From Escherichia phage vB_EcoM_F1: 64,000 nucleotides of DNA. How positions within the stretch are numbered: position 1 is the stretch's first letter; the number at the start of each line of letters is the position of its first letter. Location of the stretch: sequence record NC_054912.1. The stretch is one strand, 5' to 3'. The notes under the pieces were generated by a model. That model saw only the letters and a list, made by a program, of their open reading frames with translations. It was not told the DNA's origin and did not search any database. Below, in pieces: positions 2,743 through 28,388 of this stretch. Position numbers and translations under genes: made by a program.

Positions 2743-4722
2743 ATGACTTTATTATCTCCGGGCATTGAGCTCAAAGAAACTACGGTTCAAAGCACCGTGG
2801 TTAATAACTCTACTGGTACAGCAGCTTTGGCCGGTAAATTCCAGTGGGGTCCTGCTTTTCAGATTAAACAGGTTACAAATGAAGTAGATTTAGTTAATAC
2901 TTTTGGTCAACCAACCGCTGAAACTGCTGACTATTTTATGTCTGCGATGAATTTCTTGCAGTACGGAAATGACTTACGAGTAGTTCGTGCTGTTGATAGA
3001 GATACCGCTAAAAACTCATCTCCGATTGCCGGTAATATTGAATACACAATTTCTACCCCAGGTAGTAACTACGCAGTTGGAGATAAAATCACGGTCAAAT
3101 ATGTTTCAGATGCTATTGAAACTGAAGGTAAAATTACTGAAGTAGACGTAGATGGAAAAATTAAGAAAATTAATATTCCTACTGCAAAAATTATCGCTAA
3201 AGCTAAAGAAGTCGGTGAATATCCAGCACTAGGTTCTAACTGGACTGCGGAAATTTCTTCATCTTCCTCTGGTTTAGCTGCAGTAATAACTCTTGGAAAA
3301 ATTATTACTGATTCTGGTATTTTATTAGCTGAAATTGAAAATGCTGAAGCTGCTATGACAGAGGTTGGCTTTCAAGCAAATCTCGAAAAATACGGAATTC
3401 CAGGAGTAGTAGCTCTTTATCCAGGCGAATTAGGCGATAAAATTGAAATTGAAATAGTATCTAAAGCTGACTATGCAAAAGGAGCTTCTGCATTACTCCC
3501 AATTTATCCAGGTGGTGGTACTCGTGCATCTACTGCCAAAGCAGTGTTTGGATATGGACCACAAACTGATTCACAATACGCTATTATAGTTCGTCGCAAT
3601 GATGCTATTGTTCAAAGTGTTGTTCTTTCAACTAAGCGTGGTGAAAAAGATATTTACGATAGTAACATCTATATCGATGACTTTTTCGCAAAAGGTGGTT
3701 CAGAATATATTTTTGCAACTGCACAAAACTGGCCAGAAGGCTTCTCTGGAATTTTAACTCTGTCTGGTGGATTATCATCAAATGCTGAAGTATCAGCAGG
3801 AGATTTGATGGAAGCTTGGGACTTCTTTGCTGACCGTGAATCCGTTGATGTTCAACTGTTTATTGCAGGTTCTTGTGCCGGTGAATCTTTAGAAACAGCA
3901 TCTACTGTCCAAAAACACGTCGTTTCAATTGGGGATGCTCGCCAAGATTGCTTAGTATTGTGCTCTCCTCCGCGTGAAACTGTAGTTGGAATTCCTGTAA
4001 CCCGTGCTGTTGATAACTTAGTCAATTGGAGAACTGCGGTAGGTTCATACACTGATAATAACTTTAATATCAGTTCAACCTATGCAGCAATTGATGGTAA
4101 CTATAAGTATCAGTATGACAAATATAATGATGTGAATCGTTGGGTTCCATTAGCAGCTGATATTGCTGGTTTATGCGCAAGAACTGATAACGTATCTCAG
4201 ACTTGGATGTCTCCAGCGGGTTATAAGCGTGGCCAAATTTTGAACGTTATTAAACTGGCTATTGAAACTCGCCAGGCTCAGCGCGACCGTTTATACCAAG
4301 AAGCTATCAACCCGGTAACCGGTACAGGTGGTGATGGTTACGTATTGTATGGTGATAAAACAGCTACTTCTGTTCCTTCTCCGTTTGATCGTATTAACGT
4401 TCGTCGTCTGTTTAATATGTTGAAAACGAATATCGGACGTAGTTCAAAATATCGTTTGTTCGAATTAAACAACGCGTTTACTCGTTCATCATTCCGCACA
4501 GAAACTGCTCAGTACTTACAGGGAATTAAAGCTCTCGGTGGAATTTATGAATATCGTGTAGTTTGCGATACAACAAATAATACTCCATCAGTAATTGATA
4601 GAAATGAGTTTGTTGCAACATTCTACATCCAACCGGCGCGCAGTATAAATTATATCCAGCTTAACTTCGTTGCGACTGCTACTGGTGCAGATTTCGATGA
4701 GTTAACTGGTCTTGCAGGTTAA
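2743..4722 (+). CDS. 18: tail sheath protein gp18
   Basis: 659 aa, MTLLSPGIELKETTVQ...; strong SD; late promoter upstream. Confidence 0.95.
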   Translation: MTLLSPGIELKETTVQSTVVNNSTGTAALAGKFQWGPAFQIKQVTNEVDLVNTFGQPTAETADYFMSAMNFLQYGNDLRVVRAVDRDTAKNSSPIAGNIEYTISTPGSNYAVGDKITVKYVSDAIETEGKITEVDVDGKIKKINIPTAKIIAKAKEVGEYPALGSNWTAEISSSSSGLAAVITLGKIITDSGILLAEIENAEAAMTEVGFQANLEKYGIPGVVALYPGELGDKIEIEIVSKADYAKGASALLPIYPGGGTRASTAKAVFGYGPQTDSQYAIIVRRNDAIVQSVVLSTKRGEKDIYDSNIYIDDFFAKGGSEYIFATAQNWPEGFSGILTLSGGLSSNAEVSAGDLMEAWDFFADRESVDVQLFIAGSCAGESLETASTVQKHVVSIGDARQDCLVLCSPPRETVVGIPVTRAVDNLVNWRTAVGSYTDNNFNISSTYAAIDGNYKYQYDKYNDVNRWVPLAADIAGLCARTDNVSQTWMSPAGYKRGQILNVIKLAIETRQAQRDRLYQEAINPVTGTGGDGYVLYGDKTATSVPSPFDRINVRRLFNMLKTNIGRSSKYRLFELNNAFTRSSFRTETAQYLQGIKALGGIYEYRVVCDTTNNTPSVIDRNEFVATFYIQPARSINYIQLNFVATATGADFDELTGLAG

Positions 4723-23543: not shown

Positions 23544-24638
23544 ATGGCAATTGTTAAAGAAATAACTACTGATTTAATTAAAAAGTCCGGTGAGAAAATT
23601 TCAGCCGGACAGAGCACTAAATCAGAAGTAGTAACTAAAACATACACTGCCCAGTTTCCAACTGGGCGTGCTAGTGGTAATGACACTACAGGGGACTTCC
23701 AGGTAACAGATCTATATAAGAATGGATTATTATTTACTGCATACAATATGTCATCTAGGGATTCTGGAAGTCTTAGATCGATGAGATCTAACTACTCTTC
23801 TGCGTCTTCGGGTATTTTGAGTACAGCTAAAAACACTATTAGTAGTACAGTATCAAAACTATCAAATGGATTAATATCAAATAATAATTCAGGAACAATA
23901 AGTAAAGCTCCTGTCGCAAACATTCTTTTACCGAGATCTAAATCTGATGTTGATACATCAACACATAGATTTAATGATGTTCAAGAAAGCCTTATCAGTA
24001 GAGGCGGAGGTACTGCTACTGGTGTGCTAAGTAATATTGCTTCAACCGCAGTATTTGGGGCACTGGAAAGTATAACACAAGGTATAATGGCTGATAATAA
24101 TGAACAGATTTATACGACAGCCAGAAGTATGTATGGTGGTGCTGAAAATAGAACTAAAGTGTTTACATGGGATTTGACTCCACGTTCAACAGAAGATTTA
24201 ATGGCTATTATTAATATCTATCAATATTTTAACTATCTTTCTTATGGTGAAACAGGTAAATCTCAATACGCTGCTGAAATAAAGGGGTATTTAGATGATT
24301 GGTATCGTTCTACGTTAATTGAACCTTTATCTCCGGAAGACGCAGCTAAAAATAAAACATTATTTGAGAAAATGACAGCAAGTTTAACGAACGTTCTTGT
24401 AGTTTCAAACCCGACAGTTTGGATGGTGAAAAACTTTGGTGCAACATCTAAGTTTGATGGAAAAACGGAAATATTTGGTCCATGCCAAATACAGAGCATT
24501 AGATTTGATAAAACACCTAATGGTAACTTTAACGGATTAGCTATTGCTCCAAACCTCCCTAGTACATTTACTCTCGAGATTACTATGAGAGAAATTATCA
24601 CGTTAAACCGTGCTTCTTTATATGCGGGGACTTTTTAA
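23544..24638 (+). CDS. 48: baseplate tail tube cap gp48
   Basis: 364 aa, MAIVKEITTDLIKKSGEKISAGQ... Confidence 0.92.
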   Translation: MAIVKEITTDLIKKSGEKISAGQSTKSEVVTKTYTAQFPTGRASGNDTTGDFQVTDLYKNGLLFTAYNMSSRDSGSLRSMRSNYSSASSGILSTAKNTISSTVSKLSNGLISNNNSGTISKAPVANILLPRSKSDVDTSTHRFNDVQESLISRGGGTATGVLSNIASTAVFGALESITQGIMADNNEQIYTTARSMYGGAENRTKVFTWDLTPRSTEDLMAIINIYQYFNYLSYGETGKSQYAAEIKGYLDDWYRSTLIEPLSPEDAAKNKTLFEKMTASLTNVLVVSNPTVWMVKNFGATSKFDGKTEIFGPCQIQSIRFDKTPNGNFNGLAIAPNLPSTFTLEITMREIITLNRASLYAGTF

Positions 24639-25561
24639 TGTATTCTTTAGAGGAATTTAATAATCAAGCAATAAACGCAGATTTCCAACGTAATAATATG
24701 TTTAGCTGCGTTTTTGCAACAACTCCATCAACTAAAAGCTCTTCGTTGATAAGTTCAATTAGCAACTTTTCTTATAATAACTTGGGCCTAAATTCAAATT
24801 GGTTAGGATTAACTCAAGGTGATATTAATCAGGGAATTACCACGCTAATTACAGCTGGCACACAAAAACTGATAAGAAAATCAGGGGTTAGTAAATATCT
24901 TATTGGTGCCATGAGTCAACGTACTGTCCAGAGTTTATTAGGCTCATTTACAGTTGGTACATATTTAATTGACTTCTTTAACATGGCATATAACTCATCT
25001 GGATTGATGATATACTCTGTAAAAATGCCAGAGAATAGATTATCCTATGAAACTGACTGGAACTATAATTCTCCTAATATTCGTATAACTGGGAGAGAAT
25101 TAGACCCTTTGGTTATTTCATTTAGAATGGATTCAGAAGCTTGTAACTATCGTGCAATGCAAGACTGGGTTAACTCCGTTCAAGACCCAGTAACTGGATT
25201 ACGTGCTTTGCCACAAGATGTCGAGGCAGATATTCAGGTTAATCTTCATTCTCGTAATGGATTGCCTCATACTGCGGTGATGTTCACCGGATGCATTCCA
25301 ATATCAGTGAGCGCTCCTGAGTTATCATATGATGGAGATAACCAAATAACTACATTTGATGTTACTTTTGCGTATAGAGTGATGCAGGCTGGAGCAGTTG
25401 ATAGGCAAGCTGCGCTTGAATGGCTTGAATCTGCTGCTATAAATGGTATTCAAAGCGTTCTCGGAAATAGTGGAGGTGTTACTGGACTATCTAATTCGCT
25501 TTCACGACTTAGTAGACTAGGAGGAACCTCAGGAAGCATTTCAAATATTAGTATACTATGA
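24638..25561 (+). CDS. 54: baseplate tail tube initiator gp54 (3' end possibly frameshifted)
   Basis: 307 aa here versus about 320 aa recalled for T4; the +2 frame continues to a stop at 25603-25605 just before the terminator hairpin. Confidence 0.85.
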   Translation: MYSLEEFNNQAINADFQRNNMFSCVFATTPSTKSSSLISSISNFSYNNLGLNSNWLGLTQGDINQGITTLITAGTQKLIRKSGVSKYLIGAMSQRTVQSLLGSFTVGTYLIDFFNMAYNSSGLMIYSVKMPENRLSYETDWNYNSPNIRITGRELDPLVISFRMDSEACNYRAMQDWVNSVQDPVTGLRALPQDVEADIQVNLHSRNGLPHTAVMFTGCIPISVSAPELSYDGDNQITTFDVTFAYRVMQAGAVDRQAALEWLESAAINGIQSVLGNSGGVTGLSNSLSRLSRLGGTSGSISNISIL

Positions 25562-25607
25562 CAGGGATTGTCAATTCGCAGAGTAAAATATTAGGAGCAA
25601 TATAACA

Positions 25608-25636
25608 ATGGGGACCTTTCGGTCCCCATATTTTTA
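25608..25636. terminator. terminator between convergent 54 and the alt-region operon
   Basis: GGGGACC-TTTC-GGTCCCC hairpin followed by ATATTTTTATTT. Confidence 0.7.
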
Positions 25637-25924
25637 TTTACGGAATGAAATGAAAGCAGAAACTGAAGCAACTAAACTGTCTTCAATATAAACTTCAATT
25701 TTTACCGGAGCTTCTGACTCAAATTTACCTGTTACTACACCCTGAAAAATACTTTCAGTCTGTTCTGGCTTTGAAAAATTTTCAGAAGGAAAAATTCCAA
25801 ACTTTTTATCTGTTCCGAAAATTTTGATAAATTCATCATAAACTGCTTCATTAAAAGCATTATCAGCAGGAATAACGCCTTCAACTACAAGTTCTTGACC
25901 TAAAAAGCGTAAAGAAGATTTCAT
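25634..25924 (-). CDS. hypothetical protein (alt.-3 position)
   Basis: 96-aa ORF with SD GAGGA, directly downstream of a sigma70-type early promoter. Confidence 0.6.
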   Translation of the reverse strand: MKSSLRFLGQELVVEGVIPADNAFNEAVYDEFIKIFGTDKKFGIFPSENFSKPEQTESIFQGVVTGKFESEAPVKIEVYIEDSLVASVSAFISFRK

Positions 25925-25955: not shown

Positions 25956-25984
25956 ACTATAACACAACACGAGGGACTTGTAAA
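25956..25984 (-). promoter_or_regulatory. sigma70-type early promoter (copy A)
   Basis: minus strand GTTTACA-N17-TATAGT with TGn extension; leader and SD GAGGA follow. Confidence 0.6.
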
Positions 25985-26336
25985 CTACATTTTGAACTTT
26001 TTAGTACGCGTAATAGGCATGCGTCGATTTTATACTGTTTCATTGTTTGAAGAGCAGTATCAAAAACAGCATTAATGACACCAATTGGATTTCCACCCAA
26101 CTTAACTAATGATAGTTTCTCATTAACACCTATCATTACGATATGCATCATTTTGTCGCCTGGTTTAACGTTTTATTTGTATCACCGCCAGAGGTGTATG
26201 TACAAAATCTAAATCCAGGAAGCACGCTTTCTTCGCCGGCTTGAATAGCAAAAATTTGTGGTATTTTATGCTTAGGATTTAAGTTAACAACCGGCGCCGA
26301 AGCGCCGTCAAATAATTATGTAATAAGTTCCATGAT
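25957..26336 (-). pseudogene. degenerate tandem copy of the alt 5' region
   Basis: starts ATG GAA CTT ATT ACA then TAA (MELIT*); downstream frame encodes MMHIV...QTMKQYKIDACLLRVLKS matching Alt QTMRQYKIDACMLRILKS; DNA 26160-26336 is alignable to 28200-28388. Confidence 0.7.
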
Positions 26337-28388
26337 TTATCCTTGAACGAACTTGTAAGGCATGTTTGCAATATCTATGCAAGACGCAATAATTCCAAGA
26401 GATGATTCTACTTTCTGTTTAACATTTGATGAAACAAATGATGCAAAGTCAACTCTGTCTTCTATATCACCTGTCATTGTAACCAATTCACCAGTTTCCA
26501 TTAAATGGTCTCCGTCATAGATTACCGATTCGGTGAGTTCTTCTGTGGTCATAACTTCAGCTTGAATAAGCTTGTTGTTAGTTCTAACTGTTCCATCGTT
26601 GTAAGATGCATCAGTTATTTTATTAACTTTGACCATTAATCCACGTGGCAAAATGACTTCCATTTCATTTGAAGGCGCTAAACTTCCACCGGGTAAAACA
26701 ACATTGACCTTATCAGCCCCAGTAATAACCCATCCAATTCCAACTAAATTATCGCTAGAATTTACTAGTCCTTCATCAGTTTTATCAATAGAAACGCTTA
26801 GACGCTTTTCGTCTGGTAAAACACCTATAGATGAATCAGTCATCCAAGTACCAAAAATATTTGGATATAATGATGTTGACACAAAGTTTCTAAAATAAAA
26901 AACTCGATTTTTTACCATTGCTTCATATATTGAAGGTAACATTCGTTGTGAACGATACAAAGTAATACCTTTTGGTAATCGTTCACCATTTTTAAAGGCT
27001 GAATCTAAATTATCAATGGCTTGTTCTATTTCAGATGCTGTTAAAATACTTGTACGCTCATCTGGATTATATAATCCCAAAAGAGCATTATTCATGTCTA
27101 CATATCCTGAACCTACATATTCACGAATTCCGCGTTTTTGCGCTGGTGTGTATTTAGATGAATCTTTATTTTCGACTATAGGATGTAATGACCATCCAGC
27201 GGTAAGAGCATATCCACGTAATTCTCTTCGAATAATCTTTGTTTTTATTGCATTCCAAGAATTTTGTACTAACTCATTTGCAGCATCTTGGTTTAAATGC
27301 GAATGTCTGTTAATATTTCTTTCAAACCAAGCACCTTTATATTTTTCTAAAGTATCATCGACGATAGAAGCAATAGTTTCTAAAGTTTTTATTGAAGTAA
27401 TAGATTCTTTTCGTAATTTTTCTAAAGCTTTATTTTTTATTTCTGCATTAATAATGGATTCTTTATCTTCAGGAATTATAGAAGCTTCTCTGAATGTCAT
27501 TCCAGCTGTAACACTGCTAAGAGCATTCTCTAGTGCAAATCCTGAAGTAGAAATAACAGTTAATTCATTAGCATCAGAAATTAAAGGAGCGTCAGCAGGT
27601 TTATTTAATTCTGCTGCTGAAGCCTCAAATTTTTGAAACATCGGCGTTTCAAATCTAGAAGATTCCAACGACTGACTTTGTGCAATTGCTCTACGTGAAA
27701 TTTTAACTTTAACGATTACAGCTTGGTCAGAACGTTTATCATTTTCTTGTGCAATAGATGCTGCAATTGCCTCATTTTTAGTTACTTGAGCTCCAGTATC
27801 TTTATTGATATAAACATCACCGACCTTCGATTCAACTTTAGTAAAGAGCTCGGTACTAATTTCCGGAACTCCTGGAATGTCTTCTAGTGATACATTTTTG
27901 CGATGTATAAGAATATATGCATACTTTTTATCATAATCCCAGAGTTCCTTAAGAAGGACGTATCTGCCACCTGAACGACTACGGATAAGTCTATCAGCAA
28001 TAACTTGAATTTGTCGAGCTTGGCCAGCAGTTTTAGACTTAAGAATACGAAGCATACAAGCATCAATTTTATACTGACGCATTGTTTGCATTGCAACAGT
28101 AAAAACCGAATTGATATAATTAATTGGGCTTGGACCAAGACCTTTCAATTTAGCAATTGAACCTTTAGCAGTTAATGTAAAAGGAACAATATGCATCATT
28201 TTATCGCCCATCTTTAAATCGCGATTAGTATCACCTCCAGATGTATAGGTACATAAACGAAAGCCTGGTTGTTCAATTGCATCATCAACATGAACTGAAA
28301 AAATTTGCGGTATTTTCTTCTTTGGATTTAAGTTTGTAATTGGAAGAGTAGTATCTTCGTCAAATAATTCTGTAATTAGTTCCATCAT
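26337..28388 (-). CDS. alt: Alt ADP-ribosyltransferase (packaged into heads)
   Basis: 683 aa, MMELITELFDEDTTLPITNLNPKKK...; late promoter 21 nt upstream. Confidence 0.93.
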   Translation of the reverse strand: MMELITELFDEDTTLPITNLNPKKKIPQIFSVHVDDAIEQPGFRLCTYTSGGDTNRDLKMGDKMMHIVPFTLTAKGSIAKLKGLGPSPINYINSVFTVAMQTMRQYKIDACMLRILKSKTAGQARQIQVIADRLIRSRSGGRYVLLKELWDYDKKYAYILIHRKNVSLEDIPGVPEISTELFTKVESKVGDVYINKDTGAQVTKNEAIAASIAQENDKRSDQAVIVKVKISRRAIAQSQSLESSRFETPMFQKFEASAAELNKPADAPLISDANELTVISTSGFALENALSSVTAGMTFREASIIPEDKESIINAEIKNKALEKLRKESITSIKTLETIASIVDDTLEKYKGAWFERNINRHSHLNQDAANELVQNSWNAIKTKIIRRELRGYALTAGWSLHPIVENKDSSKYTPAQKRGIREYVGSGYVDMNNALLGLYNPDERTSILTASEIEQAIDNLDSAFKNGERLPKGITLYRSQRMLPSIYEAMVKNRVFYFRNFVSTSLYPNIFGTWMTDSSIGVLPDEKRLSVSIDKTDEGLVNSSDNLVGIGWVITGADKVNVVLPGGSLAPSNEMEVILPRGLMVKVNKITDASYNDGTVRTNNKLIQAEVMTTEELTESVIYDGDHLMETGELVTMTGDIEDRVDFASFVSSNVKQKVESSLGIIASCIDIANMPYKFVQG

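What the first reader, a model, noticed from the sequence alone, without database searches (positions are those of the whole stretch)
25540..25606. Probable frameshift at the 3' end of gene 54
The gp54 ORF ends at 25561 after 307 codons (...SISNISIL*), whereas T4 gp54 is recalled as about 320 aa. Every other core protein checked here matches its T4 length to within a residue or two. The +2 frame starting at 25558 continues for 15 codons (MTGIVNSQSKILGAI) to a TAA at 25603-25605, which sits immediately before the 25608-25636 terminator hairpin, the usual place for a gene's stop. A 1-nt deletion (or sequencing error) near 25553-25558 would account for it.
Basis: inference. Interest (0 to 1): 0.45.

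Follow-up and report, generated by a model that had tools for sequence, protein, structure and literature searches.

The report
Inherited 2-bp insertion shortens gp54
The baseplate gene 54 of this T4-like phage really is 14 codons shorter than in T4, because of a 2-base insertion that at least ten independently isolated phages share, so it is an ordinary natural variant and not a sequencing error or a broken gene.

Summary
Gene 54 runs 24638-25561 (307 aa), and the old reading frame continues from ATG 25558 for 15 codons to TAA 25603-25605, just before the terminator hairpin. The cause is a 2-nt insertion (GT, 25551-25552) relative to T4, T2 and RB14, not a 1-nt deletion. It replaces ...NTMTGIVNSQSKILGAI with ...SIL.

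It is not private to this assembly. The same junction occurs in 13 phage records from 9 isolates assigned to several Tequatrovirus species. The exact 307-aa protein is encoded on at least 14 contigs, including independent sequencing-run assemblies. At least 322 records carry the long allele.

Across gp54 homologues (292-325 aa) the tail after the conserved SRLGG motif is 9-33 residues (median 13). The short form has 11 and still ends in two hydrophobic residues, as most of the family does.

I found no slippery site or known RNA element that could restore the frame. Best reading: a viable, heritable truncation allele of an essential baseplate protein. The insertion creates a perfect 10-bp palindrome, so it may have arisen by template switching. 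A long-shot reading is that the stop/start overlap (ATGA) lets the 15-residue tail be made separately. Interest is low.

The parts
24638..25561 (+). Gene 54 (baseplate tail-tube junction/initiator protein), short allele, 307 codons plus TGA
   Evidence: ORF list. Matches solved gp54 chains 9ufn_C (E=2.5e-199) and 5iv5_W (E=2.4e-193) over residues 1-305. Lies directly after gene 48 in all relatives.
25551..25552 (+). GT insertion relative to the long allele (ATTA--ATAC becomes ATTAGTATAC); the frameshifting lesion
   Evidence: Nucleotide alignment with RB14, T4 and four IMG/VR long-allele contigs. Deleting these 2 nt restores a 321-aa ORF.
25549..25558 (.). Perfect 10-bp palindrome TAGTATACTA, created by the insertion
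   Evidence: Read from the sequence. Only 0.8% of all possible 2-nt insertions within about 150 nt on either side give a palindrome of 10 bp or more spanning the insertion.
25558..25561 (+). ATGA overlap: the new stop TGA (25559-25561) overlaps the former internal Met codon ATG (25558-25560)
   Evidence: Sequence. No Shine-Dalgarno-like motif in the 20 nt upstream (read).
25558..25605 (+). Former C-terminal coding tail of gp54 (MTGIVNSQSKILGAI plus TAA), now out of frame and downstream of the stop
   Evidence: Translation. Same peptide as the end of T4, RB14 and other long-allele gp54. Among 15 short-allele copies it has 4 variable sites, all at third positions of the old frame.
25608..25639 (.). 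Bidirectional intrinsic terminator hairpin shared by gene 54 (+) and alt.-3 (-)
   Evidence: Terminator scan on both strands. Annotated as a terminator in phages e11/2 and G8.

Best explanation
This is a naturally occurring, heritable truncation allele of gene 54. A 2-nt insertion (GT, 25551-25552) near the 3' end shifted the frame, so translation reads Ser-Ile-Leu and stops at TGA 25559-25561. The last 17 residues of the ancestral protein (NTMTGIVNSQSKILGAI) are replaced by SIL, a net loss of 14 residues. The 307-aa product is the functional baseplate tail-tube junction protein of this phage lineage. It is tolerated because the lost part is the far end of a low-complexity tail whose length already varies widely in the family, and because the new end still finishes in two hydrophobic residues like most family members. 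The 44 nt between the new stop and the old one are now untranslated 3' sequence ahead of the terminator. Shown: the insertion, its inheritance across isolates, the ancestral state, and the family's tail variability. Inferred: that the short protein is fully functional, and that the insertion arose by template switching within a quasi-palindrome.
For: (1) Removing GT makes the junction and the roughly 65 nt downstream of it identical to long-allele contigs L018 and L019, and restores a 321-aa ORF. (2) Allele-specific 54-nt megablast, which can only seed across the junction, finds 13 records from 9 isolates with the insertion. Three of the isolates whose records were opened belong to three different ICTV species: Tequatrovirus hy03, effone and e112. 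(3) The reciprocal long-allele query finds 322 records, including T2 and RB14. (4) The exact 307-aa protein is encoded on at least 14 contigs, including Logan assemblies of separate runs (SRR26820298, SRR12228473, SRR35361991, SRR26820285, DRR848848), and is deposited for F1, SG1, G8, JEP6 and FN. (5) The long form is ancestral: the tail peptide is conserved in an 86%-identical group (...NINTLTGVVNSTSRVLGL), and 55 of 78 distinct homologue C-termini end in [KR]-hydrophobic-hydrophobic, optionally followed by G-x-hydrophobic. (6) Tolerance is plausible: homologues are 292-325 aa, and the tail after the SRLGG motif is 9-33 residues (median 13, T4 25, this phage 11). (7) Every carrier in the phage collection and in GenBank is a deposited phage genome with a named bacterial host. 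Gene 54 is essential for tail-tube initiation in T4 (established knowledge; role described in PMC3004832).
Against: No direct protein evidence: nothing here shows which C-terminus is present in virions. The terminal basic residue of the family motif is missing (S-I-L rather than K/R-I-L). All 4 variable sites in the ex-coding tail among short-allele copies are synonymous in the old frame. Two of them (25569, 25572, contig L012) were not found in any long-allele phage record, which is what continued translation of the tail would also predict. However, two sites carry little weight, and recombination with unsampled long-allele phages explains them as well. What the tail does in the assembled baseplate could not be determined: only 192-213 of 320 residues are modelled in the T4 chains.
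Confidence: 0.87

Rival explanations
1. Sequencing or assembly error (or a defect private to this genome): the true gene is 321 codons long.
For: The short ORF differs from T4, T2 and RB14 by an indel only. The downstream frame is intact and ends at the usual place before the terminator.
Against: The same GT is present in 9 isolates from different laboratories and countries, and in at least 5 independent Logan run assemblies. The insertion is not in a homopolymer, where platform errors concentrate. It occurs on different flanking haplotypes (e11/2 upstream, L012 and L006 downstream), so it is not one record copied.
Confidence: 0.02
2. Recoding: ribosomes shift -1 (or +2) just before the TGA and make a full-length protein (...SIL-MTGIVNSQSKILGAI), so the tail is still part of gp54.
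For: The old frame is intact in all 15 short-allele copies, with only old-frame-synonymous variation. A stop codon in the A site can promote shifting. A weak 5-bp hairpin (UGACA-GGGAU-UGUCA) starts at the stop codon.
Against: The -1 frame carries TAG at 25549-25551, so a shift could only occur at codons ATA or CTA (25553-25558). Neither tRNA can re-pair in the -1 frame (UAU, ACU), and there is no X XXY YYZ heptamer (read). The hairpin is weak, has no spacer, and is equally present in long alleles. The 151-nt region is not unusually structured (z = -1.8). No Rfam family reaches its threshold. Divergence among short alleles is too low to expect decay of the old frame anyway (segregating sites 4/44 in the tail vs 54/913 in the gene body).
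Confidence: 0.03
3. Split gene: after terminating at TGA 25559-25561, ribosomes reinitiate at the overlapping ATG 25558-25560 (ATGA) and make the 15-residue peptide MTGIVNSQSKILGAI, which supplies the tail's function separately from the protein.
For: The insertion places the new stop exactly over the pre-existing in-frame Met codon. ATGA or TAATG overlaps are the standard coupling arrangement, and one is used at the gene 48/54 junction here (24636-24640). The peptide frame is intact and shows only synonymous variation in short-allele copies. The peptide carries the conserved K-I-L-G-x-I end motif.
Against: There is no Shine-Dalgarno sequence within 20 nt upstream. The ATG existed before the insertion, so the overlap may be coincidental. 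No evidence that a free 15-mer could bind the baseplate. The synonymous pattern is explained by recombination with long-allele phages, which the mosaic haplotypes show to be pervasive. Two private sites give roughly p = 0.1.
Confidence: 0.05
4. Pseudogenisation: the truncated gp54 is defective, and these phages are impaired or use another protein.
For: A conserved C-terminal end motif is lost.
Against: Only 14 of 321 residues are lost. The rest is 97% identical to the long-form cluster representative and shows a coding-type substitution pattern among short-allele copies (46 of 54 variable sites at third codon positions). The allele persists across several species and many isolates. No second gp54-like gene was seen at this locus.
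Confidence: 0.03

Closest known systems
T4 gp54 (baseplate tail-tube junction / tail-tube initiator protein; PDB 5IV5, 9MKB, 9UFN)
   Same: Near-identical over residues 1-305 (E about 1e-193 to 1e-199). Same position between gene 48 and the terminator/alt.-3. Same tube-protein fold family: Foldseek of the 321-aa relative hits T4 gp54, gp19 and Hcp-like tubes.
   Different: Lacks the last 14 residues, and the 3 residues before them are changed (NTM to SIL), because of a 2-nt insertion.
Naturally short-tailed gp54 homologues of other T4-like phages (for example RB49-type 310 aa; Klebsiella phage KP1/Lilla1 308 aa, PDB 9F4A; 302-305-aa forms)
   Same: Similar overall length and similar number of residues after the SRLGG motif (9-13 vs 11 here). 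Hydrophobic dipeptide at the very end (...TRLI...SRII...NRVF vs ...ISIL).
   Different: Those tails are short through in-frame evolution and usually keep a basic residue before the hydrophobic pair. Here the short tail arose abruptly by a frameshift and has Ser in that position.
Templated (quasi-palindrome) frameshift mutations of the kind first described by Ripley in the T4 rII genes (recalled from established literature, not checked here)
   Same: The inserted bases are not a tandem duplication. They convert an imperfect inverted repeat (TA-A|TACTA) into a perfect one (TAGTA|TACTA). A neighbouring hairpin also shows a loop-flip polymorphism, another signature of strand switching.
   Different: The arms are only 5 bp. 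The mechanism is inferred from the product alone, and the statistic (0.8%) was computed after noticing the palindrome.

Membership tests
T4 gp54 baseplate tail-tube junction protein | Full-length sequence homology to experimentally solved gp54 | tested here: met
   phmmer vs PDB: 9ufn_C E=2.5e-199, 5iv5_W E=2.4e-193, query residues 1-305 aligned.
T4 gp54 baseplate tail-tube junction protein | Conserved gene order: gene 29 - gene 48 - gene 54 - terminator - alt.-3 (opposite strand) | tested here: met
   ORFs in the window and annotations of FN, HY03, RB14, e11/2 and T4. Pfam labels of neighbours in 10 contigs.
T4 gp54 baseplate tail-tube junction protein | Tail-tube (gp19/Hcp-like) fold domain | tested here: inconclusive
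   Pfam PF06841 hit is below the curated cut-off (20.7 vs 28.2 bits). The AF2 model of the 321-aa relative is poor (pLDDT 53), but its core matches gp54, gp19 and Hcp tube structures by Foldseek.
T4 gp54 baseplate tail-tube junction protein | C-terminal end motif: basic residue followed by two hydrophobic residues (optionally then G-x-hydrophobic) | tested here: not met
   Present in 55 of 78 distinct homologue tails; the window ends S-I-L, with the hydrophobic pair kept and the basic residue absent. It is common but not universal, so I do not treat it as disqualifying.
Programmed -1 ribosomal frameshift site | Slippery heptamer X XXY YYZ in the zero frame at the shift point | tested here: not met
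   The only codons where a productive -1 shift could occur are ATA and CTA (25553-25558), because TAG lies in the -1 frame at 25549-25551. There is no slippery sequence.
Programmed -1 ribosomal frameshift site | Stable downstream stimulatory structure 5-9 nt after the slippery site | tested here: not met
   Only a 5-bp hairpin starting at the stop codon. Regional z-score -1.8. No Rfam match at threshold.
Termination-reinitiation (translational coupling) | Overlapping stop and start codons | tested here: met
   ATGA at 25558-25561.
Termination-reinitiation (translational coupling) | Ribosome-binding sequence upstream of the restart codon, or evidence of the downstream product | tested here: not met
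   No GGAG/GAGG/AGGA within 20 nt upstream of 25558. Existence of the product cannot be tested with these tools.
Quasi-palindrome templated mutation | The mutation perfects a pre-existing imperfect inverted repeat and is not a tandem duplication | tested here: met
   TA-A|TACTA becomes TAGTA|TACTA. 0.8% of possible 2-nt insertions nearby do as well.
Quasi-palindrome templated mutation | Demonstrated recurrence or dependence on the inverted repeat | not testable with these tools
   The insertion sits on several flanking haplotypes, but pervasive recombination explains that equally well.

The most novel reading that the evidence does not exclude
The 2-nt insertion did not delete the conserved C-terminal end of gp54 but split it off. 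The new stop overlaps the old in-frame Met (ATGA), so terminating ribosomes restart and produce the 15-residue peptide MTGIVNSQSKILGAI, which still docks into the baseplate-tube junction separately. This would make gene 54 a naturally split structural gene in this lineage, and would explain why the ex-coding tail shows only old-frame-synonymous variation.
Probability: 0.05. Interest if true: 0.6.

Novelty: already known. Interest (0 to 1): 0.15.

Why it matters
Mainly for annotation. The 307-aa gp54 of this phage and its relatives should not be 'corrected' or flagged as a pseudogene or sequencing error. It also provides a natural experiment showing that the last 14 residues of T4-type gp54, including a conserved end motif, are probably dispensable for making viable phage. 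That is useful when interpreting the largely unmodelled termini of gp54 in baseplate structures. The palindrome-creating nature of the insertion is a small, tidy example of a likely templated frameshift fixed in nature.

Tried and rejected
(1) The 1-nt deletion model is rejected: alignments show a 2-nt insertion.

(2) Sequencing error is rejected by allele-specific searches and exact-protein look-ups.

(3) Scanning metagenome contigs (0 hits) and IMG/VR (only phage G8) for the junction 19-mer added no new carriers.

(4) I tried to learn the structural role of the gp54 C-terminus. The papers held mention gp54 only in passing. The Taylor 2016 T4 baseplate paper is not held. The KP1/Lilla1 structure paper was not found.

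(5) The AF2 monomer model was too poor (pLDDT 53, tail below 50) to say anything about the tail. Foldseek only told me how many residues are modelled in each solved chain.

(6) I tested whether L012's downstream haplotype exists in long-allele phages. GGA and CAA do, but ATA and GTT were not found. This is too few sites to discriminate selection from recombination.

(7) Rfam scan of 25300-25800: nothing near any gathering score.

(8) TGA read-through would add WQGLSIRRVKY (my own translation of the frame-0 sequence), which is unrelated to any homologue tail, so I did not pursue it.

Full report
**1. The observation**

The window is a Tequatrovirus (T4-like) genome, 100% identical over 25300-25700 to Escherichia phage vB_EcoM_FN. 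Gene 54 occupies 24638-25561 on the + strand and encodes 307 residues ending ...GGTSGSISNISIL, followed by TGA at 25559-25561. From ATG 25558 the other frame reads MTGIVNSQSKILGAI and stops at TAA 25603-25605. This lies just before a terminator-like hairpin (stem 25608-25629, then a T-run) that scores on both strands. T4 gp54 is 320 aa and RB14 gp54 is 321 aa.

**2. The lesion**

Nucleotide alignment with RB14, T4 and four long-allele IMG/VR contigs shows a single indel. The long allele reads ...AAT/C ATT A--AT ACT ATG ACA..., and the window reads ...AAT ATT AGT ATA CTA TGA CA....

- The window carries two extra bases, GT at 25551-25552.
- Deleting them in silico restores a 321-aa ORF ending ...SNINTMTGIVNSQSKILGAI, the same last 17 residues as RB14 and T4.

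**3. Is it an error?**

No. I used queries with fewer than 28 nt on each side of the indel, so that megablast can only seed across the matching junction.

| Evidence | Result |
|---|---|
| Short-allele junction query | 13 records from 9 isolates: HY03, SG1, G8, JEP6, FN, F26, BYEP01, BYEP02, e11/2 |
| Long-allele junction query | 322 records, including T2 and RB14 |
| Exact 307-aa protein | At least 14 contigs, including Logan assemblies of separate sequencing runs |
| Deposited protein records | F1, SG1, G8, JEP6, FN |

- Three carriers whose records I opened belong to three different ICTV species: Tequatrovirus hy03, effone and e112.
- Every one of these records annotates the 924-nt gene.
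- The GT is not in a homopolymer.
- It occurs on different flanking haplotypes: e11/2 upstream, L012 and L006/L014 downstream.
- It is a real minority allele, about 13 of roughly 335 junction-typed records, or 13 of 498 records matching the region.

**4. Direction of change and what was lost**

The long form is ancestral.

- The tail peptide is conserved at the protein level in an 86%-identical group (...NINTLTGVVNSTSRVLGL).
- 55 of 78 distinct C-termini across the wider family end in a basic residue followed by two hydrophobic residues, optionally followed by G-x-hydrophobic. Examples are ...SKILGL...SRII...SRIL and ...TRLI.

The segment between the invariant-like SRLGG motif and that end motif is low-complexity and highly variable.

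- Homologues span 292-325 aa.
- They have 9-33 residues after the SRLGG motif, with a median of 13.
- T4 has 25 and the short allele has 11.
- The frameshifted end (...SNISIL) happens to finish with a hydrophobic pair, resembling natural short tails such as ...ITRLI or ...ISKLI, although it lacks the basic residue.

The truncated protein therefore falls inside the family's natural range. Inferred: this is why it is tolerated.

Gene 54 is needed to start tail-tube polymerisation in T4 (PMC3004832; essentiality is from established T4 genetics). The carriers in the phage collection and GenBank are deposited phage genomes with named bacterial hosts. So the 307-aa protein must work.

**5. Could the tail still be made?**

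*Recoding.* Restoring the old frame requires a -1 (or +2) shift.

- The -1 frame contains TAG at 25549-25551, so a shift could only occur at codons ATA or CTA (25553-25558).
- Neither offers re-pairing in the -1 frame, and there is no X XXY YYZ heptamer.
- The only nearby structure is a 5-bp hairpin starting at the stop codon. It is also present in long alleles.
- The region is not unusually structured (z = -1.8).
- No Rfam family comes near its threshold.

I give recoding about 3%.

*Reinitiation.* A more interesting possibility is that the new TGA overlaps the pre-existing in-frame ATG (ATGA, 25558-25561). This is the classical arrangement for termination-reinitiation, so the 15-residue tail could be made as a separate peptide.

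- Against it: there is no Shine-Dalgarno sequence upstream, the ATG predates the insertion, and nothing shows that a free peptide would function.
- The one observation that leans this way: among 15 short-allele copies, the 44-nt ex-coding tail has four variable sites, all at third positions of the old frame and all synonymous there.
- Two of these sites (25566, 25581) also segregate in long alleles.
- The other two (25569, 25572) occur only in contig L012 and were not found in any phage record.
- Two sites give roughly p = 0.1, and the haplotype table shows pervasive mosaicism. Import from unsampled long-allele phages is the simpler explanation.
- Divergence among short alleles is too low to expect visible decay (4/44 variable sites in the tail vs 54/913 in the gene body).

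I give reinitiation about 5%.

**6. How the insertion may have arisen (inference)**

- GT is not a tandem duplication.
- It converts TA-A|TACTA into the perfect 10-bp palindrome TAGTA|TACTA (25549-25558).
- Of all 4,128 possible 2-nt insertions in the surrounding stretch (about 130 nt on each side), 0.8% create a palindrome of 10 bp or more spanning the insertion.
- This is the signature of templated, strand-switch mutation at quasi-palindromes, a class of frameshift I recall as first described in T4 itself (not checked here).
- The arms are short, and the test was made after I noticed the palindrome, so this is a suggestion, not a result.

**7. Structure**

- An AF2 model of the 321-aa cluster representative, built with 58 homologues, was poor (mean pLDDT 53). 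Residues 267-321 scored below 50, as expected for segments that only order within the assembly.
- Foldseek against the PDB showed that T4 gp54 chains have only 192-213 of 320 residues modelled.
- The Klebsiella phage KP1/Lilla1 homologue has 295 of 308 residues modelled when tube and sheath are attached, but only 220 in the pre-assembled baseplate cup.
- Large parts of gp54 therefore order on tube attachment. Whether the extreme C-terminus is among them could not be determined with these tools or the papers held.

**8. Comparison and verdict**

The protein is a member of the gp54 family by sequence and synteny. It fails only the common, non-universal C-terminal end motif. It is not a programmed frameshift site: both defining features were tested and not met.

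The allele is already present and annotated in many public records, so nothing here is new in kind. It is an ordinary lineage polymorphism that looks like an error only when compared with T4 alone.

- Interest: 0.15.
- Most novel reading not excluded: the split-gene/reinitiation idea (probability about 0.05, interest 0.6 if true).

Noticed in passing
window 25608-25629 (compare L005 4726-4745, L006, L014, L017-L019): The loop of the bidirectional terminator hairpin is TTTC in the window, FN, HY03, RB14 and L016, but GAAA (its reverse complement) in T4, L006, L014 and L017-L019. The stems are otherwise matching (T4's is shorter). This looks like a hairpin-inversion ('loop flip') polymorphism. 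It decides whether the gene 54 transcript or the opposite-strand alt.-3 transcript carries the GNRA-type tetraloop.
   Followed up: partly
window about 25957-26337, minus strand: The alt.-2/alt.-1 region, which the T4 record annotates as an old duplication of the first part of gene alt, varies in ORF structure between close relatives. There is one 64-aa ORF here, in FN and in L007. T4, e11/2 and G8 have 67 + 61 aa. SG1 has 92 aa, and contig L012 has a single 128-aa ORF. This looks like a decaying or repeatedly frameshifted duplicate.
   Followed up: partly
window 24636-24640: The gene 48 stop and gene 54 start overlap (TAATG), the usual translational-coupling arrangement. This is relevant only as a local precedent for the ATGA overlap at 25558-25561.
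   Followed up: no
protein P0076 (292 aa, from a 51.7-kb Logan contig): A gp54 homologue that ends ...RRYESRLG, right at the SRLGG motif, so it lacks the whole tail. It could be another natural truncation or an assembly error. If real, it would support the view that the tail is dispensable.
   Followed up: no
L009 (phage BYEP02, OR757454.1), about 3209-3924: In this short-allele phage the gene calls in the alt region are broken up. A 101-aa product and a separate 243-aa ADP-ribosyltransferase fragment replace the 682-aa Alt. The record is also about 15 kb shorter than its sibling BYEP01.
   Followed up: no
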